A stretch of 64,000 nucleotides of DNA. Origin: Eledone cirrhosa (Eukaryota). Positions 1 through 19,913 of this stretch are shown piece by piece. The stretch covers positions 106,330,001 through 106,394,000 of the forward strand of contig OZ024740.1 in assembly GCA_964016885.1 (NCBI GenBank), read 5' to 3'. Under the pieces are notes generated by a model. The model searched no databases, was not told where the DNA came from, and was given only the letters and a program-made list of their open reading frames with translations. Within the stretch, counting starts at the first letter, position 1; each line of letters begins with the position of its first letter. The position numbers and the translations under genes are program-made.

Positions 1-3000
1 AGTTGTGTTACTTTACCTTGTCAGGTGTTAATTACATTTATGATGGTAGGTAGTTTAACATACCTGGAATAGTTGTGTTACTTTACCTCGTCAGGCGTTA
101 ATTACATTGATGATGGTAGGTAGTTTAACATACCTGGAACAGTTGTGTTACTTTACCTGTATCAGGTGTTAATTACATTGATGATGGTAGGTAGTTTAAC
201 ATACCTGGAACAGTTGTGTTACTTTACCTTGTCAGGTGTTAATTACATTTATGATGGTAGGTAGTTTAACATACCTGGAATAGTTGTGTTACTTTACCTC
301 GTCAGGCGTTAATTACATTGATGATGGTAGGTAGTTTAACATACCTGGAACAGTTGTGTTACTTTACCTGTATCAGGTGTTAATTACATTGATGATGGTA
401 GGTAGTTTAACATACCTGGAACAGTTGTGTTACTTTACCTCGCCAGGTGTTAATTACATTGATGATGGTAGGTAGTATAACATACCTGGAACAGTTGTGT
501 TACTTTACATGTATCAGGTGTTAATTACATTGATGATGGTAGGTAGTTTAACATACCTGGAACAGTTGTGTTACTTTACCTGTATCAGGTGTTAATTACA
601 TTGATGATGGTAGGTAGTTTAACATACCTGGAACAGTTGTGTTACTTTATATGTATCAGGTGTTAATTACATTGATGATGGTAGGTAGTATAACATACCT
701 GGAACAGTTGTGTTACTTTACCTTGTCAGGTGTTAATTACATTGATGATGGTAGGTAGTTTAACATACCTGGAACAGTTGTGTTACTTTACCTGTATCAG
801 GTGTTAATTACATTGATGATGGTAGGTAGTTTAACATACCTTGAACAGTTGTGTTACTTTACCTTGTCAGGTGTTAATTACATTGATGATGGTAGGTAGT
901 TTAACATACCTGGAACAGTTGTGTTACTTTACCTTGTCAGGTGTTAATTACATTGATGATGGTAGGTAGTTTAACATACCTGGAACAGTTGTGTTACTTT
1001 ACCTGTATCAGGTGTTAATTACATTGATGATGGTAGGTAGTTTAACATACCTTGAACAGTTGTGTTACTTTACCTTGTCAGGTGTTAATTACATTGATGA
1101 TGGTAGGTAGTTTAACATACCTGGAACAGTTGTGTTACTTTATCTTGTCAGGTGTTAATTACATTGATTATGGTAGGTAGTATAACATACCTGGAACAGT
1201 TGTGTTACTTTATCTTGTCAGGTGTTAATTACATTGATGATGGTAGGTAGTATAACATACCTGGAACAGTTGTGTTACTTTACCTTGTCAGGTGTTAATT
1301 ACATTGATGATGGTAGGTAGTTTAACATACCTTGAACAGTTGTGTTATTTTACCTTGTCAGGTGTTAATTACATTGATGATGGTAGGTAGTTTAACATAC
1401 CTGGAACAGTTGTGTTACTTTACCTTGTCAGGTTTTAATTACATTGATGATGGTAGGTAGTTTAACATAACTGGAACAGTTGTGTTACTTTACCTGTATC
1501 AGGTGTTAATTACATTGATGATGGTAGGTAGTTTAACATACCTTGAACAGTTGTGTTACTTTACCTTGTCAGGTGTTAATTACATTGATGATGGTAGGTA
1601 GTTTAACATACCTGGAACAGTTGTGTTACTTTATCTTGTCAGGTGTTAATTACATTGATGATGGTAGGTAGTATAACATACCTGGAACAGTTGTGTTACT
1701 TTACCTTGTCAGGTGTTAATTACATTGATGATGGTAGGTAGTATAACATACCTGGAACAGTTGTGTTACTTTACCTGTATCAGGTGTTAATTACATTGAT
1801 GATGGTAGGTAGTATAACATACCTGGAACAGTTGTGTTACTTTACCTTGTCAGGTGTTAATTACATTGATGATGGTAGGTAGTATAACATACCTGGAACA
1901 GTTGTGTTACTTTACCTTGTCAGGTGTTAATTACATTGATGATGGTAGGTAGTATAACATACCTGGAACAGTTGTGTTACTTTACCTGTATCAGGTGTTA
2001 ATTACATTGATGATGGTAGGTAGTTTAACATACCTGGAACAGTTGTGTTACTTTACCTGTATCAGGTGTTAATTACATTGATGATGGTAGGTAGTATAAC
2101 ATACCTGGAACAGTTGTGTTACTTTACCTCGCCAGGTGTTAATTACATTGATGATGGTAGGTAGTTTAACATACCTGGAACAGTTGTGTTACTTTACCTC
2201 GCCAGGTGTTAATTACATTGATGATGGTAGGTAGTTTAACATACCTGGAACAGTTGTGTTACTTTACCTTGTCAGGTGTTAATTGCATTGATGATGGTAG
2301 GTAGTATAACATACCTGGAATAGTTGTGTTACTTTACCTCGTCAGGCGTTAATTACATTGATGATGGTAGGTAGTTTAACATACCTGGAACAGTTGTGTT
2401 ACTTTACCTTGTCAGGTGTTAATTACATTTATGATGGTAGGTAGTTTAACATACCTGGAATAGTTGTGTTACTTTACCTCGTCAGGCGTTAATTACATTG
2501 ATGATGGTAGGTAGTTTAACATACCTGGAACAGTTGTGTTACTTTACCTGTATCAGGTGTTAATTACATTGATGATGGTAGGTAGTTTAACATACCTGGA
2601 ACAGTTGTGTTACTTTACCTTGTCAGGTGTTAATTACATTTATGATGGTAGGTAGTTTAACATACCTGGAATAGTTGTGTTACTTTACCTCGTCAGGCGT
2701 TAATTACATTGATGATGGTAGGTAGTTTAACATACCTGGAACAGTTGTGTTACTTTACCTGTATCAGGTGTTAATTACATTGATGATGGTAGGTAGTTTA
2801 ACATACCTGGAACAGTTGTGTTACTTTACCTCGCCAGGTGTTAATTACATTGATGATGGTAGGTAGTATAACATACCTGGAACAGTTGTGTTACTTTACA
2901 TGTATCAGGTGTTAATTACATTGATGATGGTAGGTAGTTTAACATACCTGGAACAGTTGTGTTACTTTACCTCGCCAGGTGTTAATTACATTGGTGATGG

Positions 3001-6000
3001 TAGGTAGTATAACATACCTGGAACAGTTGTGTTACTTTACCTCGCCAGGTGTTAATTACATTGTTGATGGTAGGTAGTATAACATACCTGGAACAGTTGT
3101 GTTACTTTACCTTGTCAGGTGTTAATTACATTGATGATGGTAGGTAGTATAACATACCTGGAACAGTTGTGTTACTTTACCTTGTCAGGTGTTAATTACA
3201 TTGATGATGGTAGGTAGTTTAACATACCTGTAACAGTTGTGTTACTTTACCTTGTCAGGTGTTAATTACATTGATGATGGTAGGTAGTTTAACATACCTG
3301 GAATAGTTGTGTTACTTTACCTTGTCAGGTGTTAATTACATTGATGATGGTAGGTAGTATAACATACCTGGAACAGTTGTGGTACTTTACCTTGTCAGGT
3401 GTTAATTACATTGATGATGGTAGGTAGTTTAACATACCTGGAATAGTTGTGTTACTTTACCTCGTCAGATGTTAATTACATTGATGATGGTAGGTAGTAT
3501 AACATACCTTGAACACTTGTGTTACTTTACCTCGTCAGGTGTTAATTACATTGATGATGGTAGGTAGTTTAACATACCTGGAACAGTTGTGTTACTTTAC
3601 CTGTATCAGGTGTTAATTACATTGATGATGGTAGGTAGTTTAACATACCTGGAATAGTTGTGTTACTTTACCTCGTCAGGTGTTAATTACATTGATGTTG
3701 GTAGGTAGTATAACATACCTGGAACAGTTGTGTTACTTTACCTCGTCAGGTGTTAGTTACTTTGATGATGGTAGGTAGTTTAACATACCTGGAACAGTTG
3801 TGTTACTTTACCTTGTCAGGTGTTAATTACATTGATGATGGTAGGTAGTATAACATACCTGGAACAGTTGTGTTACTTTACCTCGTCAGGTGTAAATTAC
3901 ATTGATGATGGTAGGTAGTATAACATACCTTGAACAGTTGTGTTACTTTACCTCGTCAGGTGTTAATTACATTGATGATGGTAGGTAGTTTAACATACCT
4001 TGAACACTTGTGTTACTTTACCTTGTCAGGTGTTAATTACATTGATGATGGTAGGTAGTTTAACATACCTGGAATAGTTGTGTTACTTTACCTTGTCAGG
4101 TGTTAATTACATTGATGATGGTAGGTAGTATAACATACCTTGAACAGTTGTGTTACTTTACCTTGTCAGGTGTTAATTACATTGATGATGGTAGGTAGTA
4201 TAACATACCTGGAATAGTTGTGTTACTTTACCTCGCCAGGTGTTAATTACATTGATGATGGTAGGTAGTTTAACATACCTGGAACAGTTGTGTTACTTTA
4301 TATGTATCAGGTGTTAATTACATTGATGATGGTAGGTAGTATAACATACCTGGAACAGTTGTGTTACTTTACCTTGTCAGGTGTTAATTACATTGATGAT
4401 GGTAGGTAGTTTAACATACCTGGAACAGTTGTGTTACTTTACCTTTTCAGGTGTTAATTACATTGATGATGGTAGGTAGTATAACATACCTGGAACAGTT
4501 GTGGTACTTTACCTTGTCAGGTGTTAATTACATTGATGATGGTAGGTAGTTTAACATACCTGGAATAGTTGTGTTACTTTACCTCGTCAGGTGTTAATTA
4601 CATTGATGATGGTAGGTAGTATAACATACCTTGAACACTTGTGTTACTTTACCTCGTCAGGTGTTAATTACATTGATGATGGTAGGTAGTTTAACATACC
4701 TGGAACAGTTGTGTTACTTTACCTGTATCAGGTGTTAATTACATTGATGATGGTAGGTAGTTTAACATACCTGGAATAGTTGTGTTACTTTACCTCGTCA
4801 GGTGTTAATTACATTGATGATGGTAGGTAGTATAACATACCTGGAATAGTTGTGTTACTTTACCTCGTCAGGTGTTAATTACATTGATGTTGGTAGGTAG
4901 TAAAACATACCTGGAAGAGTTGTGTTACTTTACCTGTATCAGGTGTTAATTACATTGATGATGGTAGGTAGTATAACATACCTGGAACAGTTGTGTTACT
5001 TTACCTGTATCAGGTGTTAATTACATTGATGTTGGTAGGTAGTATAACATACCTGGAACAGTTGTGTTACTTTACCTGTATCAGGTGTTAATTACATTGA
5101 TGTTGGTAGGTAGTATAACATACCTGGAACAGTTGTGTTACTTTATCTCGTCAGGTGTTAATTACATTGATGATGCTAGTTAGTATAACATACCTGGAAC
5201 AGTTGTGTTACTTTACCTCGTCAGGTGTTAATTACATTGATGATGGTAGGTAGTTTAACATACCTGGAACAGTTGTGTTACTTTACCTGTATCAGGTGTT
5301 AATTACATTGATGATGGTAGGTAGTATAACATACCTGGAACAGTTGTGTTACATTACCTGTATCAGGTGTTAATTACATTGATGATGGTAGGTAGTTTAA
5401 CATACCTGGAACAGTTGTGTTATTTTACCTCGCCAGGTGTTAATTACATTGATGCTGGTAGGTAGTTTAACATACCTTGAACAGTTGTGTTACTTTACCT
5501 TGTCAGGTGTTAATTACATTGAAGATGGTAGGTAGTATAACATACCTGGAACAGTTGTGTTACTTTACCTGTATCAGGTGTTAATTACATTGATGATGGT
5601 AGGTAGTTTACATACCTGAAACAGTTGTGTTACTTTACCTGTATCAGTTGTTAATTACATTGATGATGGTAGGTAGTTTAACATACCTGGAACAGTTGTG
5701 TTACTTTACCTGTATCAGGTGTTAATTACATTGATGTTGGTAGGTAGTATAACATACCTGGAACACTTGTGTTACTTTACCTCGTCAGGTGTTAATTACA
5801 TTGATGATGGTAGGTAGTTTAACATACCTGGAACAGTTGTGTTACTTTAACTGTATCAGGTGTTAATTACATTGATGATGGTAGGTAGTTTAACATACCT
5901 GGAACAGTTGTGTTACTTTACCTTGTCAGGTGTTAATTACATTGATGATGGTAGGTAGTTTAACATACCTTGAACAGTTGTGTTACTTTACCTGTATCAG

Positions 6001-9000
6001 GTGTTAATTACATTGATGTTGGTAGGTAGTTTAACATACGTGGAACACTTGTGTTACTTTACCTGTATCAGGTGTTAATTACATTGATGATGGTAGGTAG
6101 TATAACATACCTGGAACAGTTGTGTTACTTTACCTGTAAAAGGTGTTAATTACATTGATGATGGTAGGTAGTTTAAGATACCTGGAACAGTTGTGTTACT
6201 TTACCTGTATCAGGTGTTAATTACATTGATGATGGTAGGTAGTTTAACATACCTGGAACAGTTGTGTTAATTTACCTGTATCAGGTGTTAATTACATTGA
6301 TGATGGTAGGTAGTTTAACATACCTGGAACAGTTGTGTTACTTTACCTCGCCAGGTGTTAATTACATTGATGATGGTAGTATAACATACCTGGAACAGTT
6401 GTGTTACTTTACCTCGCCAGGTGTTAATTACATTGATGATGGTAGGTAGTATAACATACGTGGAACAGTTGTGTTACTTTACCTTGTCAGGTGTTAATTA
6501 CATTGATGATGGTAGGTAGAATAACATACCTGGAACAGTTGTGTTACTTTACCTGTATCAGGTGTTAATTACATTGATGATGGTAGGTAGAATAACATAC
6601 CTGGAACAGTTGTGTTACTTTACCTTGTCAGGTGTTAATTACATTGATGATGGTAGGTAGTTTAACATACCTGGAACAGTTGTGTTACTTTACCTCGTCA
6701 GGTGTTAATTACATTGATGATGGTAGGTAGTTTAACATACCTGGAACAGTTGTGTTACTTTATATGTATCAGATGTTAATTACATTGATGATGGTAGGTA
6801 GTATAACATACCTGGAACAGTTGTGTTACTTTACCTTATCAGGTGTTAATTACATTGATGATGGTAGGGAGTTTAACATACCTGGAACAGTTGTGTTACT
6901 TTACCTTGTCAGGTGTTAATTATATTGATGAAGGTAGGTAGTATAACATACCTGGAACAGTTGTGTTACTTTACCTTGTCAGGTGTTAATTACATTGATG
7001 ATGGTAGGTAGTTTAACATACCTTGAACAGTTGTGTTACTTTACCTGTATCAGGTGTTAATTACATTGATGATGGTAGGTAGTTTAACATACCTTGAACA
7101 GTTGTGTTACTTTACCTGTATCAGGTGTTAATTACATTGATGATGGTAGGTAGTATAACATACCTGGAACAGTTGTGTTACTTTACCTCGTCAGGTGTTA
7201 ATTACATTGATGATGGTAGGTAGTTTAAGATACCTGGAACAGTTGTGTTACTTTACCTGTAAAAGGTGTTAATTACATTGATGATGGTAGGTAGTATAAC
7301 ATACCTGGAACAGTTGTGTTACTTTACCTTGTCAGGTGTTAATTACATTGATGATGATAGGTAGTTTAACATACCTTGAACAGTTGTGTTACTTTACCTT
7401 GTCAGGTGTTAATTACATTGATGATGGTAGGTAGTTTAACATACCTTGAACAGTTGTGTTACTTTACCTCGTCAGGTGTTAATTACATTGATAATGGTAG
7501 GTAGTATAACATACCTGGAACAGTTGTGTTACTTAACCTATATCAGGTGTTAATTACATTGATGTTGGTAGGTAGTTTAACATATCCAGGTATGTTAAAC
7601 AGTTCTGTTACTTTACCTATATCAGGTGTTAATTACATTGATGATGGTAGGTAGTTTAACATATCCAGGTATGTTAAACAGTTGTGTTACTTTACCTGTA
7701 TCAGGTGTTACTTACATTGATGATGATAGGTAGTTTAACATACCTGGAACAGTTGTGTTACTTTACCTTTAACAGGTGTTAATTACATTCATGTTGGTTG
7801 GTAGTATAACATACCTGGAACAGTTGTGTTACTTTACCTATATCAGGTGTTAATTACATTGATGTTGGTAGGTAGTTTAACATATCCAGGTATGTTAAAC
7901 AGTTGTGTTACTTTACCTATATCAGGTGTTAATTACATTGATGATGGTAGGTAGTTTAACATATCCAGGTATGTTAAAAAGTTGTGTTACTTTACCTGTA
8001 TCAGGTGTTAATTACATTGACGATGATAGGTAGTTTAACATACCTGGAACAGTTGTGTTACTTTACCTTTAACAGGTGTTAATTACATTGATGTTGGTAG
8101 GTAGTATAACATACCTGGAACAGTTGTGTTACTTTACCTATATCAGGTGTTAATTACATTGATGTTGGTAGGTAGTTTAACATATCCAGGTATGTTAAAC
8201 AGTTGTGTTACTTTACTTGTATCAGGTGTTAATTACATTGATGATGGTAGGTAGTTTAAGATACCTGGAACAGTTGTGTTACTTTACCCATATCAGGTGT
8301 TAATTACATTGATGATGGTAGGTAGTATAACATACCTGGAACAGTTGTGTTACTTTACCTCGCCAGGTGTTAATTACATTGATGATGGTAGGTAGTTTAA
8401 CATACCTGGAACAGTTGTGTTACTTTACCTCGTCAGGTGTTAATTACATTGATGATGGTAGGTAGTATAACATACCTGGAACAGATGTGTTACTTTACCT
8501 GTATCAGGTGTTAATTACATTGATGATGGTAGGTAGTATAACATACCTGGAACAGTTGTGTTACTTTACCTTGTCAGGTGTTAATTACATTGATGATGGT
8601 AGGTAGTTTAACATACCTGGAACAGTTGTGTTACTTTACCTCGCCAGGTGTTAATTACATTGATGATGATAGGTAGTATAACATACCTGGAACAGTTGTG
8701 TTACTTTACCTGTATCAGGTGTTAATTACATTGATGATGGTAGGTAGTTTAACATACCTGGAACAGTTGTGTTACTTTACCTGTATCAGGTGTTAATTAC
8801 ATTGATGATGGTAGGTAGTTTAACATACCTTGAACAGTTGTGTTACTTTACCTGTATCAGGTGTTAATTACATTGATGATGGTAGGTAGTTTAACATACC
8901 TTGAACAGTTGTGTTACTTTACCTTGTCAGGTGTTAATTACATTGATGATGGTAGGTAGTTTAACATACCTGGAACAGTTGTGTTACTTTACCTTGTCAG

Positions 9001-12000
9001 GTGTTAATTACATTGATGATGGTAGGTAGTTTAACATACCTGGAACAGTTGTGTTACTTTACCTGTATCAGGTGTTAATTACATTGATGATGGTAGGTAG
9101 TTTAACATACCTGGAACAGTTGTGTTACTTTACCTGTATCAGGTGTTAATTACATTGATGATGGTAGGTAGTTTAACATACCTTGAACAGTTGTGTTACT
9201 TTACCTTGTCAGGTGTTAATTACATTGATGATGGTAGGTAGTTTAACATACCTGGAACAGTTGTGTTACTTTACCTGTATCAGGTGTTAATTACATTGAT
9301 GATGGTAGGTAGTTTAACATACCTGGAACAGTTGTGTTACTTTACCTGTATCAGGTGTTAATTACATTGATGATGGTAGGTAGTTTAACATACCTTGAAC
9401 AGTTGTGTTACTTTACCTTGTCAGGTGTTAATTACATTGATGATAGTAGGTAGTTTAACATACCTGGAACAGTTGTGTTACTTTACCTTGTCAGGTGTTA
9501 ATTACATTGATGATGGTAGGTAGTTTAACATACCTGGAACAGTTGTATTACTTTACCTGTATCAGGTGTTAATTACATTGATGATGGTAGGTAGTTTAAC
9601 ATACCTGGAACAGTTGTGTTACTTTACCTGTATCAGGTGTTAATTACATTGATGATGGTAGGTAGTTTAACATACCTTGAACAGTTGTGTTACTTTACCT
9701 TGTCAGGTGTTAATTACATTGATGATGGTAGGTAGTTTAACATACCTGGAACAGTTGTGTTACTTTACCTTGTCAGGTGTTAATTACATTGATGATGGTA
9801 GGTAGTTTAACATACCTGGAACAGTTGTGTTACTTTACCTCGCCAGGTGTTAATTACATTGATGATGGTAGGTAGTTTAACATACCTTGAACAGTTGTGT
9901 TACTTTACCTTGTCAGGTGTTAATTACATTGATGATGGTAGGTAGTTTAACATACCTTGAACAGTTGTGTTACTTTACCTTGTCAGGTGTTAATTACATT
10001 GATGATGGTAGGTAGTTTAACATACCTGGAACAGTTGTGTTACTTTACCTTGTCAGGTGTTAATTACATTGATGATGGTAGGTAGTTTAACATACCTGGA
10101 ACAGTTGTGTTACTTTACCTGTATCAGGTGTTAATTACATTGATGATGGTAGGTAGTATAACATACCTGGAACAGTTGTGTTACTTTACTTCGTCAGGTG
10201 TTAATTACATTGATGATGGTAGGTAGTTTAATATACCTTGAACAGTTGTGTTACTTTACCTTATCAGGTGTTAATTACATTGATGATGGTAGGTAGTTTA
10301 ACATACCTGGAACAGTTGTGTTACTTTATCTTGTCAGGTGTTAATTACATTGATGATGGTAGGTAGTATAACATACCTGGAACAGTTGTGTTACTTTACC
10401 TTGTCAGGTGTTAATTACATTGATGATGGTAGGTAGTTTAACATACCTGGAACAGTTGTGTTACTTTACCTGTATCAGGTGTTAATTACATTGATGATGG
10501 TAGGTTGTTTAAGATACCTGGAACAGTTGTGTTACTTTACCTGTAAAAGGTGTTAATTACATTGATGATGGTAGGTAGTATAACATACCTGGAACAGTTG
10601 TGTTACTTTACCTGTATCAGGTGTTAATTACATTGATGATGGTAGGTAGTATAACATACCTGGAACAGTTGTTTTACTTTACCTGTATCAGGTGTTAATT
10701 ACATTGATGATGGTAGGTAGTATAACATACCTGGAACAGTTGTGTTACTTTACCTGTATCAGGTGTTAATTACATTGATGATGGTAGGTAGTATAACATA
10801 CCTGGAACAGTTGTGTTACTTTACCTGTATCAGGTGTTAATTACATTGATGATGGTAGGTAGTTTAAGATACCTGGAACAGTTGTGTTACTTTACCTTGT
10901 CAGGTGTTAATTACATTGATGATGGTAGGTAGTTTAACATACCTGGAACAGTTGTGTTACTTTACCTCGTCAGGTGTTAATTACATTGATGATGGTAGGT
11001 AGTATAACATACCTGGAACAGTTGTGTTACTTTACCTGTATCAGATGTTAATTACATTGATGATGGTAGGTAGTTTAACATACCTTGAACAGTTGTGTTA
11101 CTTTACCTGTATCAGGTGTTAATTACATTGATGATGGTAGGTAGTATAACATACCTGGAACAGTTGCGTTACTTTACCTGTATCAGGTGTTAATTACATT
11201 GATGATGGTAGGTAGTATAACTCACCTGGAACAGTTGTGTTACTTTACCTGTATCAGGTGTTAATTACATTGATGATGGTAGGTAGTATAACATACCTGG
11301 AACAGTTGTGTTACTTTACCTGTATCAGGTGTTAATTACATTGATGATGGTAGGTAGTATAACATACCTGGAACAGTTGTGTTACTTTACCTGTATCAGG
11401 TGTTAATTACATTGATGATGGTAGGTAGTATAACATACCTGGAACAGTTGTGTTACTTTACCTGTATCAGGTGTTAATTACATTGATGATGGTAGGTAGT
11501 ATAACATACCTGGAACAGTTGTGTTACTTTACCTGTATCAGGTGTTAATTACATTGATGATGGTAGGTAGTATAACATACCTGGAACAGTTGTGTTACTT
11601 TACCTGTATCAGGTGTTAATTACATTGATGATGGTAGGTAGTATAACATACCTGGAACAGTTGTGTTACTTTACCTGTATCAGATGTTAATTACATTGAT
11701 GATGGTAGGTAGTTTAACATACCTTGAACAGTTGTGTTACTTTACCTGTATCAGGTGTTAATTACATTGATGATGGTAGGTAGTATAACATACCTGGAAC
11801 AGTTGCGTTACTTTACCTGTATCAGGTGTTAATTACATTGATGATGGTAGGTAGTATAACATACCTGGAACAGTTGTGTTACTTTACCTGTATCAGGTGT
11901 TAATTACATTGATGATGGTAGGTAGTATAACATACCTGGAACAGTTGTGTTACTTTACCTGTATCAGGTGTTAATTACATTGATGATGGTAGGTAGTATA

Positions 12001-12449
12001 ACATACCTGGAACAGTTGTGTTACTTTACCTGTATCAGGTGTTAATTACATTGATGATGGTAGGTAGTATAACATACCTGGAACAGTTGTGTTACTTTAC
12101 CTGTATCAGGTGTTAATTACATTGATGATGGTAGGTAGTATAACATACCTGGAACAGTTGTGTTACTTTACCTGTATCAGGTGTTAATTACATTGATGAT
12201 GGTAGGTAGTATAACATACCTGGAACAGTTGTGTTACTTTACCTGTATCAGGTGTTAATTACATTGATGATGGTAGGTAGTATAACATACCTGGAACAGT
12301 TGTGTTACTTTACCTGTATCAGGTGTTAATTACATTGATGATGGTAGGTAGTATAACATACCTGGAACAGTTGTGTTACTTTACCTGTATCAGGTGTTAA
12401 TTACATTGATGATGGTAGGTAGTATAACATACCTGGAACAGTTGTGTTA
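1..12449. repeat. Satellite A: 70/71-bp tandem array, ~177 monomers, running off the left edge
   Basis: Monomer agttgtgttactttacc(ttg|tcg|tgta)tcaggtgttaattacattgatgatggtaggtagt(t|a)taacatacctggaac recurs at 1, 71, 141 and onward. The tgta variant is 71 bp. The array ends abruptly at ...gttgtgtta 12449. Confidence 0.98.
7575..8200. repeat. 300-bp higher-order repeat (79+79+71+71) in satellite A, containing fold-back 79-bp monomers
   Basis: gtttaacatatccaggtatgttaaa(c) occurs at 7575, 7654, 7875, 7954 and 8175, with the same context at 300-bp offsets. Confidence 0.9.
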
Positions 12450-12856: not shown

Positions 12857-13036
12857 AACATAATTGTTTCTACTATTGGCACAAGGCCAGCAATTACTCA
12901 GTACATTACTGGTACTTTATATTATCGACCCCGTAAGGATAAAAGGTAGGATTTGAACTCAGAATTGCAAGGGCCGTAACTCTATGCGTCAAAGCATGGC
13001 GTCCGACCCTCTCCCGATACTTCCAATTCACCGCCC
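12857..13036 (-). mobile_element. tRNA-derived SINE, near full length with an internal deletion
   Basis: The minus strand starts gggcggtgaattggaag, has B-box gagttcaaatcc, core atccttacggggtcgataa..aaagtaccag and tail gctggccttgtgccaatagtagaaacaattat. It is homologous to the two neighbouring copies. Confidence 0.8.
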
Positions 13037-13107
13037 TAACATAATTGTTTCTACTTTTGGCATAAGGCCAGCAATTATCCAGTACTGGTATTTTATATTA
13101 TCGACCC
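13037..13107 (-). mobile_element. 5'-truncated copy of the same SINE, directly abutting the first
   Basis: taacataattgtttctacttttggcataaggccagcaatta...ttatattatcgaccc repeats 12857-12931 with a small deletion. Confidence 0.8.
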
Positions 13108-13360
13108 TAACATAATGATGTTCAATCATATAAGAGCGTTCGATTATTTACAACTTACAAAATGGTGGGATATAGTCAAATAAAGATTGTATGTAAAAAA
13201 AATTACATGTAGGATTATCATTCTCACAACAATAGTGATCTTCTCAATGAGCGTGCCGTATCAGTTAAAACAATTTTTGGCACTTTCTGCAATGATGATA
13301 AACCAGGCATCATTCTCAAATAATTTTCTGTTCCTCTTTTTATCATTTATATTGCTCCTA

Positions 13361-13527
13361 TAATAACTGTTTCTACTTTTGGCACAAGGCCAGCAATTCA
13401 CCAGTGTATTACTGGTACTTTATTTTATCGACCCCGTAAGGATGAAAGGCAAAGTTAATCTCGGCGGGATTTGAACTCAGATCATAAAGGGGCGTAACTC
13501 TATGCGTCAAAGCATGGCGTCCGACTC
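13361..13527 (-). mobile_element. Third copy of the same SINE family
   Basis: tgtttctacttttggcacaaggccagcaatt...ttatcgaccccgtaaggatgaaaggcaaagttaatctcggcgggatttgaactcag...tatgcgtcaaagcatggcgtccgac aligns with 12865-13007 and retains the segment deleted there. Confidence 0.85.
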
Positions 13528-13892
13528 TGTTAGTGTAACCACCTTGAGATGCAACATGTTTTCAATTTCAATGAACAAATCTTTATATTTTCTGAGCTTG
13601 TCTAAATCGTTTGCCGCAATATTGTGATCACATGGGATCCTCATATCAAACAATAAACAAACTTTGTTTTTTTTTTAACTTTTACAATAATATCTTGACT
13701 ATTAGCCTTTATGGTTCTGTATGTATGTACAGGAAACTCCCAAAGAATCGTTACATGTTCTCCCTCATTTACAGCTTCGGGGTAATGTTTATAATGCCGA
13801 CATATTAACCTGTGTAGATATTGACCAATTCTGCCATGCCTTCATACATACTCTACTAGTGCTAAAACTTTACATCCAGAAATTAAGCGTTA

Positions 13893-15710
13893 TTATTCGG
13901 TCTTTGACGGGCCGAGACAAACACGAGCGGAACAATTCCAGGCAGATTTATGAGGCCTTTCACCAGCACTTTGCTCGGCAGTTCTGGGGAAGCGGGGAGT
14001 CGGAGACGGTGGCAGATTTCAGTCCCTACCTCGAAAGCCTACTGCAAGTGATCCGCTCCGATCTCCTCGAAGCGCTCTACTGCAACTGGCAGCAGAACGG
14101 GAGTATTCCCAGTTCTGTGAGCCGGGACGTAATGACGGTAATAAGGAAAGACCAGAATAAGAGTGATATATGAGACAACTTCATGCCCATAACTCTGCTA
14201 AACACAGAGTTTTAGATTTTGACCAAGGTGTTAGTGAAGAGGTTGGCGTTTGTCGTCGGGGATTTGGTAGGTGAGGCGCAAACATGCGAAATCCCAACCA
14301 GGTCCATACATGACAATCTCCGCCACATGCGATACATCAAAGAGAGAGTAGGGTGTAAACCAGGCTTCGGTGGAGTTCTGATCAATTTAGATCAATCGAA
14401 CGCTTTCGATATGGTCGACTAACGATACCTGGAGGCTGTCCTCAAGGCAGCTGACTTCGGTCCCGTCTTCAAAGGCTAGATCGTTTCAACGCACAGCGGC
14501 ATCTGTTTAGTGATCGAAGTTAATGGCTATCTTTCGGAACCGTTTCAGATCACCCGATCGGTCCGTCAAGTGTGTCTTCTCTCCTCCCTTCTGTATGTAC
14601 TGACTCTCGAGCGTTTACTGTGGCAGATGGAGCTGTTTTAGGACATCCCGCTCGAACCAGGACGTGGAATGGCTGTCGGCATATGCGGATGACATCAACG
14701 TGATAGTGTCGAACATCTCGGAAATCGAGATTGTAGGCAGCTGTTTGGAGGAATATGAAAGGTTGACAGGAGCAAAACTAAACCCGGAAAAGTCGGTGGG
14801 TTTGCAGCTCGACAACTGGAAAGTCAAGTCCATGCTGTTCAACAGAGTCGTCGGGAGCTGGACAGGTAAAGTTGCTCTGGATCTGGTTCGGCCCAGATCT
14901 CCAGGTGGATAAAGAATTGGGAAGAGGTTACGATCAGGGTAGCCACTCTCACCCAGAAATCGGTCGAAAGGAAGCTATCACTGAAAGGTCATATATTACC
15001 GCCTGACCGTTATGCCTTGCCCCCGTTCGTGCCTCGCCAAATTGGAACGGTTCCTCTTCAACTTCTTATGGAGGGGACAGATTCTGTTAGTGAACCGGTC
15101 CATCTGCTGCCAGCACTCTCCACATGGTGGGCTGGACATGCCTTGGCTAATGATCCGCGAACATACGCTGCGGATCTGGCATCTCCAGACATTCTGCCTA
15201 AACGTTGAACAGGTGTGGTCGTCGTTTGTGAGACAGGCCTTTCCACAGCTCTTCTCTTTGACTGTACTGCACTCCTCGGTCAAGACGAGACAGAGGCTGG
15301 ATGCCTGACATCTGGAATATTGCCAGGCGCTCATTGCCCTATACCAGTCGGGCAATGCGGTCAGTGAAACTTCCACTCTCGCGTTCTATAGAGAATTAGT
15401 GGTGAGTAAGTGCGATGACGCACTCGGTGAGGCTCTACGCGTAGACAAAGTCGGACTGACCAGTCTGTTCCGGAGGACTTTCGAGTCAGGGACTAAGAAT
15501 AACTTCCAGGAATCCCTCGCTTGACAGTGCTACCGGGGAGCACTGCCGGTTCGAGATAAATTCTACAGGCATGGAAGTACTGTCAGACGGATGTGTCCGA
15601 GATGCGCGAAGAGCGACGAAAGCGTTCTGTACGCACTCGTTCAATATCCATGCATTACTGACTTGCGGAGTTATGTTGAACAGCTATTGTCACATGTAAG
15701 ATGGATCCGG

Positions 15711-15711
<1 letters not shown>
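13893..15711 (+). mobile_element. Decayed L1/Tx1-type non-LTR retrotransposon ORF2 fragment (RT plus C-terminal zinc-binding region)
   Basis: ORF pieces give ordered LINE RT motifs: VIRKD..DNFMPITLLN, LTKVLVKRL, SIHDNL, LDQSNAFDMVD, SVRQ(V)C, SAYADD (14682-14693), GAKLNPEKS, FNFLWRG, HGGLDMP and CPRC....ESVLYAL. There are many stops and frameshifts, and the KSPGxDG segment appears deleted near 14050. GC content is clearly higher than in the flanks. Confidence 0.93.

Positions 15712-15759
<48 letters not shown>
15712..15759. repeat. (TA)24 microsatellite
   Basis: Perfect TA run between the truncated LINE and the hammerhead repeat. Confidence 0.97.
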
Positions 15760-15762
<3 letters not shown>

Positions 15763-15931
15763 AAGTATATATGCAAAATGCATATAGCAACACATGTATT
15801 ATCCAACCGTATGCCAATGTGGTTCTATGGCAGGTTAATAAATTAACAATTGAACATATATAATCAAGGTTTAGCAAATAAGAAAAAGTTTTAAAATAAA
15901 TTTTAAAAAGTTCACTGTACCTGCTATAATT

Positions 15932-16001
15932 ACCCTTACCGCGCAGTTTCAAGTCTCAAAATAAATGGATAATCCATGCGGAAATCCATTCGTCAGCGGG
16001 T
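15932..16001 (-). ncRNA. Type I hammerhead ribozyme, degenerate second copy
   Basis: Minus strand reads acccg CTGACGA atggat...atccat ttattttgagactt GAAA ctgcgcgg TA agggt. The core boxes are intact, but a ~14-nt deletion removes the 5' arm of basal stem II and stem I has a mismatch. Confidence 0.75.
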
Positions 16002-16399
16002 TCTTCTCACTCGGAGAATATAAAATTCCTGAGTTCAAATCACGAACTGGTGCCATACAGAACTGTTCCTGGATGAGAGTGTATGATGAAGAAACAATTT
16101 TGTCTAGTGCCGTGTGTAAAGATAGAAGGCAGGGGCGGAAAGGTCAATGTACTTCCACTAGAAATAGCAGCAGTTAAAACGACCAAAATGTTATCTCGAC
16201 CAGGGGAAATTAATAATAATAAAGTATGTTTCCCTACATGCAAAATGCATATAGCGACACATGTATTATCCAACCGTATGCCAATGTGGTTCTATGGCAG
16301 GTTAATAAATTAACGAGCCAGAACATATATAAGCAAGGTTTAGAAAATAGGAAAAAGTTTTTTTAAAATGTTTTAAAGTTCACTGTACCTGCTATAATT

Positions 16400-16483
16400 A
16401 CCCTTACCGCGCGGTTTCAAGTCTCAAAATAAATGGATAATCCATGGGGAAATCCATTGAGAAGAAGACTTTCGTCAGAGGGT
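16400..16483 (-). ncRNA. Type I hammerhead ribozyme, intact motif
   Basis: Minus strand reads accct CTGACGA aagtct [tcttctc aatggat ttccccatggatt atccatt tattttg] agactt GAAA ccgcgcgg TA agggt. Stem I is accct/agggt, stem II is aagtct/agactt with an inner aatggat/atccatt helix, and stem III is palindromic. Confidence 0.9.
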
Positions 16484-16564
16484 TCTTCTATAATTACCCT
16501 TACCGCGCAGTTTCGAGTCTCAGTTGTTCTGGCTCGTTAATTTATTAACCTGCCATAGAATCAC

Positions 16565-17782
16565 ATTAAAAATACTTCTGAAAGTGGAATTTGGGCCATG
16601 TCTGCAACTAGAAAATAAGATTTTTTTTAAGATTAATAGAGTTTTGACAGTTAATTATATAAAAAATATTCCTCGATACACAAGTTACAGAATCTTGAGA
16701 AAGCCATATTTCGGTATGCAGGTGCTTTCGAAATCGTTCCCCAAGATATCGAATAGTCTATATTGTTGTCTTTTAAGTTCCAAATTAAATGTGAAACTGA
16801 AGTGGAAGATTTTTTATCGGATCTATTAAATGTGTGTTTATGGTTATACCAGTGTTCTCTGAATTTTGTAGAAGTGGCACCAATATAGTTGAATACTTTG
16901 ACTCTAGTTTTAACTGTGCATTTATAAATTATGTCTTTGTCTAAGCAATTATTTTGTAAAGGGCAGTTTGATTTAATTCTAAAGTTACATTTTCTGGAGT
17001 TGTTGTTGTTCGGAACGGTACTATTATTCTGAATATTGTTGTTAGAAATATTATTATTGCTATCTTGGTTAGTTTGGTTAGGGTTTAAATTTAAGTTTCT
17101 ATTATTAATTCTATTTATATTTTGTGCTATGTTCATAGTAGTAGAGTAGGATAGTTTTATAGTGTGCTTGTTAAAAATAGAGTGGTATCTGTGGGCTTTA
17201 GGAAAACATTTATCTAGTTCTTTAAAAAATAGCTTTGCTAAAGGTGTTTTAACGCTTAATGAGAATGGAGGAGAGTACCAAATAATATATCTAGTTCTAG
17301 TTTTTTTGTTTGGTTTAGTGTTTAAGTTAAATTGTTTATTATTATTATAATTAATTCTAGGATGATTTGTTATATTATTGTTATCTATGTATTTAATTTT
17401 ATTCGAGTATCCTGCTCTATGTAAAGCTTCATTGTAATATTCTGCGTTATCATCAAAAATATTTTTATTAGCAGAGATGCGTGAAATCCGTCGTTTGACG
17501 CTATTGACAATAGTATTTTTAATACTTCTAGGATGATTAGAATTGAAACTTACGTAATTTAGATTTTCGTTAATTTTATGGAATGGATAGTAAAGACCTG
17601 TGCTAAGGTTTAAGGTTACATCTAAGAAGTTAACGATTTTGTAATTATTCTCGATTTCTAAATTAAGGTTGTAGTTGTTGAAAAATTGTATTATGGATTT
17701 CCTTTTCCTATTAATTTCACTATTGCTATAGTTTTCAATTAAAAGTAACATATCGTCGCGATATAAACCTCCGGTCATCATC
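16565..17782 (-). mobile_element. 5'-truncated Penelope-like element ORF (RT C-terminal part, thumb, GIY-YIG endonuclease), probably Naiad-type
   Basis: ORF 16651..17832 contains GLYRDD (YRDD 17752-17763), VNFLDVTLNL, SNHP, WYSPPFS..VKT, IFNKHTIKLSYS, C(N)FR...CPL...C, IIYKC...YIGAT (GIY-YIG), NHKHTF and CNLC. The terminal SCRH follows a frameshift. Clade is assigned from recalled motifs. Confidence 0.92.
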
Positions 17783-17814
17783 CTTAAAATACAACAATAT
17801 AGACTATATATATT

Positions 17815-19360
17815 GAACTTAAAAGACAACAATATAGACTATTCAATATCTTGGGGAACGATTTCGAAAGCACCTGTATACCGAAATATGGCTTTCTCAA
17901 GATTCTGTAACTAGTGTATCGAGGAAATTTTTTATATAATTAACTGTCAAAACTCTATTAATCTTAAAACAGAATTATTTTTTAGTTGCAGACATCGCCA
18001 AAATTCCACTTTCAGAAGTATTTTTAATTTATGATATTCATTACACTTGACTATATCTTATACACCTTCAAAATGATCCTATTTTCTTTAAAAATTTAAA
18101 TTTAAATTTTTTTAAATGATCTTCCTTCTTAATTTTTTTAATATTTCTACTATTTTTACCATTTGACATTAATTTTTTAATTTTTTAATATATTCTTTTA
18201 CTATTTTTACCTTTTGACATTATTTTCTTAATGATACCCCTCTCTAAATATATTCTTTTAGATGTAGATTGATAATCTTTAATTGACATTCTGAAAGTTT
18301 ATCCTCTTTACGATAGTTCTTCCAAATGCACATTACTTTTTTTCCTTTTCTTTGGTCTTCAAACTTTCACACATCTTTCGACTAAAATAATATATAATTG
18401 AAATTAATCTCACACAAAACAATATATAATTTTCTCTATATATTTTCTGAGTAAATCATTCATCAAATTTAACGGTTAACAAACAAGCTTGGAGTTATCT
18501 TTCCCTTTTCAATCGTGCAAACATAAACATTATATTATAATATTATATGTATGATAAACTATATAACTTCGCTAAATTAACAATATTCTTAAAACATTTT
18601 CAATGCTGGAACAAAATATTTGAATCTACAAATTGTTCTCCTCTTACAACTTGAACTACCTGTTTTTTATGTAAATCCAAAATCAACATCCTTCGTAACT
18701 AGAAATGTAAACAACTTATTATTAGAAATGTAAACAACTAATAATTGTAAATTATTTATATTTCTATAATACTTATACATGCACAATTATTAATCTATAT
18801 AGATATTTATATACTTACAACCTATTGTAATGTAATAAGATAAAATCTACTTACAACCATAATTCTTCATATAATCTAGTTGATTATATATACAATATTA
18901 TAACTCATAATATAGCTAAATAAATGTAAATTCTGGAAACATATTCCACCATTCCGGCAAACTGTTAATTCCTTTTTAAATTAATTATTCTCGATTTATA
19001 AATTTGTAAATTAACGTAAATACAAGCTCTTCTTTCTTTTCTTTCTTCTTCCTACTCATACATACATATATCCTAATTATTTAAATTCTGCATAGCGTCT
19101 AAAATAACGCCTTTTCAGCCCTATACCTCAAACTCATTTGCATACTCATCTTAATAATTTGAAATATCTGACTTTTCTTCTCTTTTCCTTCACTATTCAA
19201 GAAAAACTTGAACCGTTAAGGTATCTTTTCTTGGTCAAAATTTATAAAACAGACTTTGTATTTTATCTGATGAAAGCGTACTAAAGTTTTGGTGCCCTTG
19301 AAATATATATAATAGAATAAATATGGTTTTATAAATATAGTTTCCATTTATTTAATATCA
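17815..19360 (+). mobile_element. Inverted pseudo-LTR of the same Penelope-like element (ORF 3' end plus long AT-rich 3' UTR)
   Basis: 17815-18028 is the reverse complement of 16565-16780 (LKDNNIDYSISWGTISKAP..SCRH). It continues as AT-rich non-coding DNA to a hammerhead and a short TA run near 19363. The right boundary is inferred. Confidence 0.78.
19259..19319 (+). ncRNA. Minimal type I hammerhead ribozyme at the end of the pLTR
   Basis: tattttat CTGATGA aagcgtacta aagttt tggtgccctt GAAA tatata TA atagaata. Stem I is 8 bp (one G-U), stem II is 10 bp (one C-C mismatch, two G-U), and stem III is short and palindromic as in PLE hammerheads. Confidence 0.85.
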
Positions 19361-19839
19361 TTGTATATATATGTATAGATAGACGGAAGGGAGTGGGGCG
19401 TTGTAGAGTGGTGGTTGTGCCATTTAACAATTAACTAACACAAGGATATTTTGAACAGTTTGAAGTGTTAGTAAACAAAACATACAGGAATAACAGCTTT
19501 AAAGATCTATGTAATCCTCTATTGAAAATTTTCAATAGCCAGATTAAGAGTAAAAAAAGAAACTATATCTAATTAAAATATTTGAATTGATAAAACAATT
19601 TGAGTGGAATTTTAAATAAGCTTCTTAGATCTCATTGACGGGCAGAATGTATATAACATTGAACGTATAATTCATAAATTTTTATTTATCTTATTCTATG
19701 CCTGAATTTTATGTATTATTTTGTTGTTTTCAATAGCGTATTGTTGTTATTCGTCTTAATAATAATCATTTCTGGCATAAACATCAATGTGTTGTATGAA
19801 AGAGAAATAGTTGGCCATTTTGACTGGAAATAGTAAAAG

Positions 19840-19840
<1 letters not shown>

Positions 19841-19876
<36 letters not shown>

Positions 19877-19913
19877 GCTGCTGCTGCTGTTGCTGTTGTT
19901 GTTATTGTTGTTG
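19841..19913. repeat. (GTT)n/(GCT)n microsatellite, probably the (AAC)n tail of the adjacent SINE
   Basis: Trinucleotide run directly adjoining the 3' end of the minus-strand SINE. Confidence 0.93.

What the first reader, a model, noticed from the sequence alone, without database searches (positions are those of the whole stretch)
15712..19375. Composite insertion: ribozyme repeat fused to a Penelope-like RT/GIY-YIG element between TA runs
Seen, in order: (TA)24, hammerhead repeat (minus), scrambled junction, PLE ORF (minus, lacking its own 3' UTR), inverted pLTR with its own hammerhead (plus), short TA run. Inference: one reverse-transcription event primed at (TA)n copied the small ribozyme RNA ~1.5 times (consistent with a circular template), jumped onto the PLE mRNA and finished with the inversion. 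This would physically link a retrozyme to its mobilising enzyme, a relationship usually only inferred.
Basis: partly seen in the sequence, partly recalled or inferred. Interest (0 to 1): 0.75.

Follow-up and report, generated by a model that had tools for sequence, protein, structure and literature searches.

The report
Retrozyme and Penelope insertions stuck together
This 3.7-kb stretch joins a repeat predicted to encode a self-cutting RNA to a broken Penelope-type jumping gene, but it most likely comes from two separate insertions at one TA-rich spot with loss of the DNA between them, so it probably does not prove that this enzyme copied the small RNA.

Summary
The anatomy is real: (TA)24, 1.5 units of a 483-nt type I hammerhead repeat (at least 2,566 candidates in the genome), a scrambled TA-free joint, a 5'-truncated Hydra-type Penelope-like (PLE) ORF cut just before its stop codon, an inverted PLE 3' arm with its own hammerhead, and (TA)4. 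The one-event reading is weakened. Both families insert as one arm or as two head-to-head arms with a single strand switch (272 of 273 clusters). The window has three switches and two arm-to-arm joints, so it parses as two two-armed insertions abutting, minus the tail-TA-3'UTR stretch between them. Intact tail-to-tail neighbours sharing a TA run occur at 8 other loci. No second TA-free joint turned up in 354 loci, and chance predicts about 2 in the genome. The ages match (4.8% vs 4.2% internal divergence), but the whole families are coeval. The repeat shares no sequence with this PLE, and other PLE families are present. What holds is indirect: both families share TA targeting and the pairing of one short with one long 3' end. 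The scan noted that footprint before for other retrozymes in this genome.

The parts
13706..15710 (+). Decayed LINE-like host element (weak RVT_1 and zf-RVT matches), cut about 600 nt before the family's 3' end
15712..15759 (.). (TA)24; none of 19 other host copies has a TA run at this point
15757..16240 (-). Retrozyme main arm, 3' unit, ending at the family's long (B) 3' site; its hammerhead (core at 15996) lacks 14 nt of stem II
16241..16489 (-). Retrozyme main arm, 5' half unit (unit positions 234-483) with an intact type I hammerhead: core at 16478-16472, palindromic stem III, predicted cleavage between 16405 and 16404
16485..16522 (-). 38-nt re-copied piece (unit positions 297-334), a same-strand template jump at the 5' end of the main arm
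16525..16567 (+). 43-nt inverted retrozyme piece (unit positions 399-441), read here as the short second arm; 2-nt gap to the main arm, 3-nt overlap with the PLE
16565..17779 (-). PLE left arm: RT motif 5 (YRDD), thumb, linker, GIY-YIG endonuclease; N-terminal half absent, frameshifted near the C-terminus, cut just before the stop codon, 3' region missing
17780..17814 (.). PLE arm-to-arm joint with a 25-nt duplicated filler
17815..19368 (+). PLE right arm: last 214 coding bases, 1.3-kb 3' region, type I hammerhead (core 19267-19273, predicted cleavage after 19311), ending at the family's short (A) 3' site
19364..19371 (.). (TA)4, followed by flank unrelated to the left host element

Best explanation
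The locus is most likely two separate, similarly old insertions, a hammerhead retrozyme and a Hydra-type Penelope-like element, that landed at the same TA-rich spot, with the DNA between them likely lost during the second insertion or afterwards. Inferred mechanism for each: a PLE protein nicks both strands near (TA)n and primes two cDNAs, one from each side, usually one at the long and one at the short 3' start site of the RNA; the two cDNAs are joined head to head. The retrozyme event gave the 1.5-unit left arm and the 43-nt right arm (joint at 16522/16525). The PLE event gave the ORF arm and the 3' arm (joint at 17779/17815). The sub-route I favour: the PLE came first with a normal long-ended left arm; the retrozyme then inserted at that end, its second cDNA primed on three bases of PLE DNA at the ORF end, removing about 1.4 kb of PLE 3' region. 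The reverse order, or a later deletion across a tail-TA-tail stack, gives the same sequence. Shown: parts, strands, joints, family statistics. Inferred: order, priming, the deletion, the enzyme.
For: Strand pattern: 114 of 114 retrozyme clusters and 158 of 159 PLE clusters have at most one strand switch; the window reads -,-,+,-,+, that is two two-armed units. The joint at 16522/16525 (gap +2) falls inside the range of 36 retrozyme arm-to-arm joints, 31 of which lie between -7 and +6. Short second arms of 34-38 nt that end directly on non-TA foreign DNA exist at 2 of those 36 (L171, L177), and short same-strand jump pieces at the joint at 3 more (L003, L138, L339). All 12 other retrozyme-PLE neighbours within 350 nt in 354 loci have a TA run between them; 9 junctions at 8 loci are tail to tail, and L341 has the same -,+,-,+ layout with tails and TA intact. 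Target loss is needed anyway, since the host's last 600 nt are missing; the host's other half was not found near 13 of 16 testable insertions. Chance estimate (my arithmetic): 2,566 copies x 20 of 80 with a TA-free 5' end x about 0.3% of flanking DNA from this PLE family gives about 2 TA-free joints in the genome.
Against: The outer ends are one long (retrozyme) and one short (PLE) site, the pairing that a single two-armed event gives (41 of 61 PLE, 9 of 17 retrozyme), while only 7 of 97 single-armed retrozymes end at the long site. The two parts have equal internal divergence (11 of 230 vs 9 of 214 sites, P=0.82). No allele with only one part was seen, and the deletion size (1.4 kb or more) could not be measured elsewhere. 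The favoured sub-route alone is rare (short TA-free second arm at 2 of 36 joints).
Confidence: 0.66

Rival explanations
1. One insertion event used both RNAs: the left cDNA started at the retrozyme's long site, ran 1.5 times along or round it, folded back on itself for 43 nt, jumped to PLE mRNA at the ORF end, and was joined to a right cDNA primed at the PLE's short site.
For: Long plus short outer ends as in single events; equal divergence; no TA at the joint and a 3-nt overlap; one template for the 1.5 units; template jumps within arms are common in this family; both families coeval (rare substitutions 2.5% and 2.3% median).
Against: Needs a fold-back without base pairing at its start plus a jump between unrelated RNAs; fold-backs seen in 0-1 of 273 clusters (upper 95% bound 1.1-1.7%). 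No second case in 109 retrozyme loci (upper bound 2.7%), in three searches with mixed queries (40 best scored of 3,761, 4,828 and 2,182 candidates) or in 354 loci. No shared target duplication.
Confidence: 0.22
2. The hammerhead repeat is only the terminal repeat (pLTR) of this or another autonomous PLE, so the locus is an ordinary PLE partial tandem.
For: Type I hammerhead directly behind a PLE ORF end; retrozymes are proposed to derive from pLTRs (bioRxiv 10.64898/2026.07.22.740005).
Against: None of 29 other copies of the ORF continues into the repeat; they continue into the 1.3-kb region seen in the right arm. Best repeat-versus-PLE match E=0.24. In 109 loci the repeat's 5' side is its own unit, TA or unrelated DNA, never a PLE ORF end.
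Confidence: 0.05
3. The central joint is an assembly error between two collapsed repeat loci.
For: Contigs of runs X1 and X2 show almost no coverage at 16490-16519 and none bridges the joint; the island lies between two satellite arrays.
Against: The tool states that holes prove nothing, and short low-depth links between high-copy repeats are expected to drop out of such contigs (my knowledge of graph cleaning). The joint pieces carry the local subfamily variant and private changes at the same rate as the rest, and look like natural joints elsewhere. Both flanks are matched by contigs without differences, the right one up to 19348.
Confidence: 0.05

Closest known systems
Hydra-clade Penelope-like elements (Craig et al. 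2021, PMC8557442; section 11 and passages read)
   Same: C-terminal GIY-YIG, RWR (for RWK) and DKT motifs, CxCX5C linker, CxxC and CxH around the conserved E and N, hammerhead, insertion into (TA)n, inverted 5'-truncated arm, tail at one end only.
   Different: About 3.7-3.8 kb with a 1.4-kb 3' region (paper: generally under 3 kb); tail about 93 nt (paper: 30-40 bp, given for PLEs in general); no tree built here.
Metazoan non-LTR retrozymes (Cervera and de la Pena 2020, PMC7229834, passages read; Li et al. 2026, bioRxiv 10.64898/2026.07.22.740005, parts 1-3 of 5 read)
   Same: Non-coding unit with a type I hammerhead and short palindromic stem III, permuted 1-2-unit copies, thousands of loci, co-occurring with PLEs.
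   Different: 483-nt unit with a long insertion in stem II; mostly dispersed 1-1.5-mers with two fixed 3' ends 106 nt apart and two-armed insertions; no homology to the neighbouring PLE's terminal region; circles and cleavage not tested.
Anolis PAc PLE in vitro (Frangieh et al. 2024, PMC11167929; parts 1-2 of 4 read)
   Same: Both strands nicked and extended, AT-rich cleavage (ATT preferred), two internal RT start sites that define the tail.
   Different: There the start sites did not differ between strands and were not homologous to the target; here the two arms nearly always use different sites (41 long+short, 1 short+short among 61 complete PLE clusters) and both sites are TA-like.
L1 template-switch chimeras and twin priming (PMC4476161, PMC13174262, PMC2837659; search listing and start of abstract only, details recalled)
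   Same: Two RNAs or an inversion in one insertion.
   Different: Those have one joint per switch and one target duplication around the whole; here there are two arm-to-arm joints, no duplication and no recurrence.

Membership tests
Hydra-clade PLE | RT followed by C-terminal GIY-YIG endonuclease in one ORF | tested here: met
   (by motif; Pfam silent)
Hydra-clade PLE | RWK motif and DKT in place of DKG | tested here: met
   RWR and DKT in family copy L035; this part is absent from the window copy
Hydra-clade PLE | CxCX5C linker; CxxC and CxH around E and N; no CCHH | tested here: met
   read by eye in L032, L035, L038, L040; the window copy has one linker Cys changed
Hydra-clade PLE | Hammerhead in the terminal region and insertion into (TA)n | tested here: met
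Hydra-clade PLE | Generally shorter than 3 kb (a tendency, not a rule) | tested here: not met
   about 3.7-3.8 kb in L035/L040
Hydra-clade PLE | Placement in the clade by RT phylogeny | not tested
   no reference set on hand
Non-LTR retrozyme | Type I hammerhead core with paired stems | tested here: met
   Rfam silent
Non-LTR retrozyme | Short non-coding unit in tandem or permuted copies at many loci | tested here: met
Non-LTR retrozyme | Expressed as circular RNA | not tested
Non-LTR retrozyme | Self-cleavage | not testable with these tools
   only predicted; dimer fold forms stems I-III
Non-LTR retrozyme | Homology to the pLTR of a PLE (24 of 57 families matched a known element in the preprint) | tested here: not met
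   for this PLE family only, best E=0.24; other PLE families not surveyed in full
Template-switch chimera (single event) | One target duplication enclosing both parts | tested here: inconclusive
   none here, but duplications of 25 nt or more flank only 3 of 178 clusters of these families
Template-switch chimera (single event) | Parts in an order that one or two growing cDNAs give without fold-back | tested here: not met
   pattern -,-,+,-,+
Template-switch chimera (single event) | Recurrence at other loci | tested here: not met
   0 TA-free joints in 354 loci; sample is a few percent of the copies

The most novel reading that the evidence does not exclude
One Hydra-type PLE complex held both a circular retrozyme RNA and its own mRNA, started one cDNA at the retrozyme's long site and the other at the PLE's short site, and switched templates, leaving a fossil that names the enzyme family that moves this retrozyme.
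Probability: 0.22. Interest if true: 0.62.

Novelty: new member of a known kind. Interest (0 to 1): 0.3.

Why it matters
Mobilisation of animal retrozymes by PLEs is proposed from co-occurrence and pLTR similarity (PMC7229834; bioRxiv 10.64898/2026.07.22.740005); I found no report of a retrozyme-PLE chimera in five searches (the preprint's supplements were closed). A true single-event chimera would be physical evidence, but this locus is better read as two stacked insertions. The usable result is the side-by-side footprint in one genome: an autonomous Hydra-type PLE and an unrelated retrozyme of the same age both target TA and both pair one long with one short 3' start in two-armed insertions. 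That gives a testable prediction for an in vitro assay and a rule (count the arm-to-arm joints) for telling real chimeras from stacks.

Tried and rejected
Rfam at gathering score and at E<=10: no hammerhead hit. Pfam on the ORF: none. Monomer folding: no significant z-score. Empty-site reconstruction from the host element: right flank is not its continuation. Searches for other chimeras with three mixed queries: only TA-bridged neighbours; each scores only 40 candidates. Public runs: three contig sets of one sample hold 0.38-0.48 of the words; three RAD runs of other samples hold only repeat-derived reads; nothing bridges the central joint, which is uninformative either way, and no empty or partial allele could be read. 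Age ordering: rare substitutions 18 of 713 (retrozyme) vs 50 of 2,696 (PLE), P=0.29, so no order. A start signal shared by the two tails: both fold into hairpins before the long site, but no shared sequence. Clean insertions into TA-free hosts: the 3 of 16 candidates did not hold up as clean cases where inspected (L055, L270), so de novo TA synthesis stays unproven. A protein alignment failed on a frame error; motifs were read from translations instead. Caveats on counts: retrozyme loci L111-L190 were chosen by an exact 25-nt hammerhead motif, so crossing the cleavage site is built in; pieces under 28 nt were dropped, so some 'internal' ends are really short canonical arms; PLE loci mix similarity hits with 60 motif-chosen loci from one chromosome; duplicate loci were merged before counting.
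Full report
Setting. The window is G000:C1:106330001-106394000 of a 3.0-Gb animal genome. An 8-kb island of transposon pieces lies between two satellite arrays. The finding covers 15712-19375.

Observation. Everything listed is there. (TA)24 at 15712-15759 is followed by 1.5 units of a 483-nt repeat on the minus strand (15757-16489), a 38-nt re-copied piece (16485-16522), a 43-nt inverted piece (16525-16567), a PLE ORF fragment on the minus strand (16565-17779), a filler, and a plus-strand PLE arm (17815-19368) that ends in (TA)4. Three hammerhead cores were found by motif. Rfam and Pfam are silent, so both identities rest on motifs and on relatives in the genome. The repeat's hammerhead is type I with a 10-nt palindromic stem III; 15 of 25 cores pair fully in all three stems, and the predicted dimer forms stems I-III, as described for metazoan hammerheads (PMC4209133, passages). 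The copy in the left unit has lost 14 nt of stem II.

The two families. The repeat has at least 2,566 candidates. In 80 loci chosen by an exact hammerhead motif it is a dispersed, permuted 0.2-2-unit element, with TA near the 5' end in 60 of 80 and near the 3' end in 72 of 80. The PLE has at least 4,558 candidates for the query, and near-complete copies (L035, L040) show RWR, DKT, a CxCX5C linker, CxxC and CxH, the marks of the Hydra clade in PMC8557442 section 11. The window copy lacks the N-terminal half and is frameshifted near its end, so it encodes no working enzyme. The two families share no sequence (best E=0.24). None of 29 other ORF copies runs into the repeat. Other PLE families lie near 14 of 80 repeat loci.

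Shared footprint. Each family has two fixed 3' ends, a short (A) and a long (B) one, 93 nt apart in the PLE and 106 nt in the repeat. This is the PLE 'tail', which PMC11167929 traces to two RT start sites. Insertions are one arm or two head-to-head arms. Of 61 complete two-armed PLE clusters, 41 pair A with B, 15 pair B with an internal end, 3 pair A with an internal end, 1 is A+A and 1 has two internal ends. Of 17 two-armed repeat clusters, 9 are A+B, 3 B+internal, 2 A+internal, 2 internal only, 1 A+A. Single-armed repeats end at A in 77 and at B in 7 of 97. Median rare substitutions are 2.5% and 2.3%, so the families are coeval. This is indirect evidence that a PLE of this kind moves the repeat. 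Earlier notes of this scan report the same footprint for other retrozymes here; I took the two-armed wording from them and tested it on these two families.

One event or two. For one event: the outer ends are B (repeat) and A (PLE); internal divergence is 11 of 230 sites between the repeat units and 9 of 214 between the PLE arms (P=0.82); there is no TA at the joint. The two units share a variant found in 0 of 72 other copies, so they come from one template, circle or tandem RNA. Against: a two-primed event yields one strand switch, and 272 of 273 clusters have at most one. The window has three, with two arm-to-arm joints. The joint at 16522/16525 has the usual size (31 of 36 such joints lie between -7 and +6), short second arms ending on non-TA DNA occur at 2 of 36, and short jump pieces at the joint at 3 more. 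Read so, the 43-nt piece is the repeat's second arm, B+internal is an ordinary pairing, and the PLE is an ordinary two-armed copy whose left end is gone. The age match has little power because any two copies of these families would match.

Other loci. No TA-free repeat-PLE joint was found in 109 repeat loci (upper 95% bound 2.7%), in three searches with mixed queries or in all 354 loci outside the window. All 12 neighbours within 350 nt are separated by TA; 9 junctions at 8 loci are tail to tail, 2 of them among the 80 motif-chosen repeat loci. L341 shows the window's layout with tails and TA intact. My chance estimate for TA-free joints is about 2 in the genome (2,566 x 20/80 x 0.3%), so one case needs no special mechanism. 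Loss of target DNA is also ordinary here: the host element at the left lacks its last 600 nt and is not continued on the right, the host's other half was missing near 13 of 16 testable insertions, and long target duplications flank only 3 of 178 clusters.

Mechanism proposed. Inferred: a PLE protein, probably a dimer (predicted in PMC11167929), nicks both strands at or near TA, primes one cDNA at B and the other at A or at an internal AT-rich site, and the cDNAs are end-joined; DNA between widely spaced nicks is lost. First the PLE inserted (B left, A right). Then the retrozyme was primed at its B site on the left, copied 1.5 times with one back-jump, while its second cDNA was primed on three bases at the PLE's ORF end (ATT is the preferred cut of the Anolis enzyme) and ran 43 nt; about 1.4 kb of PLE 3' region went. 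The reverse order or a later deletion across a stack cannot be excluded (ages do not order them, P=0.29). Together these two-event routes get 0.66, the single event 0.22, assembly error 0.05, pLTR of a PLE 0.05.

Alleles. Runs X1-X3 (one sample) match both flanks and the right end but no contig bridges the central joint; RAD runs give only repeat reads. This is uninformative.

Literature seen. bioRxiv 10.64898/2026.07.22.740005: parts 1-3 of 5, supplements closed. PMC8557442: passages and section 11. PMC11167929: parts 1-2 of 4. PMC7229834 and PMC4209133: passages. L1 chimera and twin-priming papers: search listing only. Five searches showed no report of a retrozyme-PLE chimera or of the A+B pairing in retrozymes; a tail at one end only is already described for PLEs.

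Verdict. A real and well-read anatomy made of new members of two known kinds. The composite is probably a stack with a deletion, not a captured template switch. Interest 0.3; the single-event reading stays open at about 0.2 and can be settled by one population or sister-species allele.

Noticed in passing
window 1-12449 and 20308-64000: The 8-kb transposon island lies between a 70-bp and a 53-bp satellite array.
   Followed up: no
window 12857-13528: Three pieces of a very common short repeat; retrozyme 5' ends join its ATT-rich tail directly at L163, L170 and L182, and at L016 it sits between two retrozyme pieces.
   Followed up: partly
L221-L280: Many short PLE arms begin within about 25 nt of one point, roughly 100-130 nt upstream of the predicted cleavage site; a fixed stop or a short derived element, unexplained. 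The 40-nt motif there has 3,743 exact matches in the genome.
   Followed up: no
loci; window 15710-15712: In 17 of 71 testable cases the TA run behind a 3' end abuts an internal point of another repeat whose other copies have no TA there, as in the window; the runs may be made at insertion (telomerase-like slippage) or brought there by deletion.
   Followed up: partly
L341 (G000:C1:178456800-178460300): Intact two-armed retrozyme and two-armed PLE end joined tail to tail by a short TA run, the undeleted analogue of the window.
   Followed up: yes
L115, L118, L127, L132, L143, L144, L147, L148, L152, L153, L172, L175, L182, L190: Other PLE families (26-71% amino-acid identity to this one) within 3 kb of 14 of 80 retrozyme loci.
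   Followed up: no
window 19840-19913: (TGT)n run of about 25 units.
   Followed up: no
L017/L018 and L166/L167: Near-identical locus pairs, probably segmental duplications.
   Followed up: no
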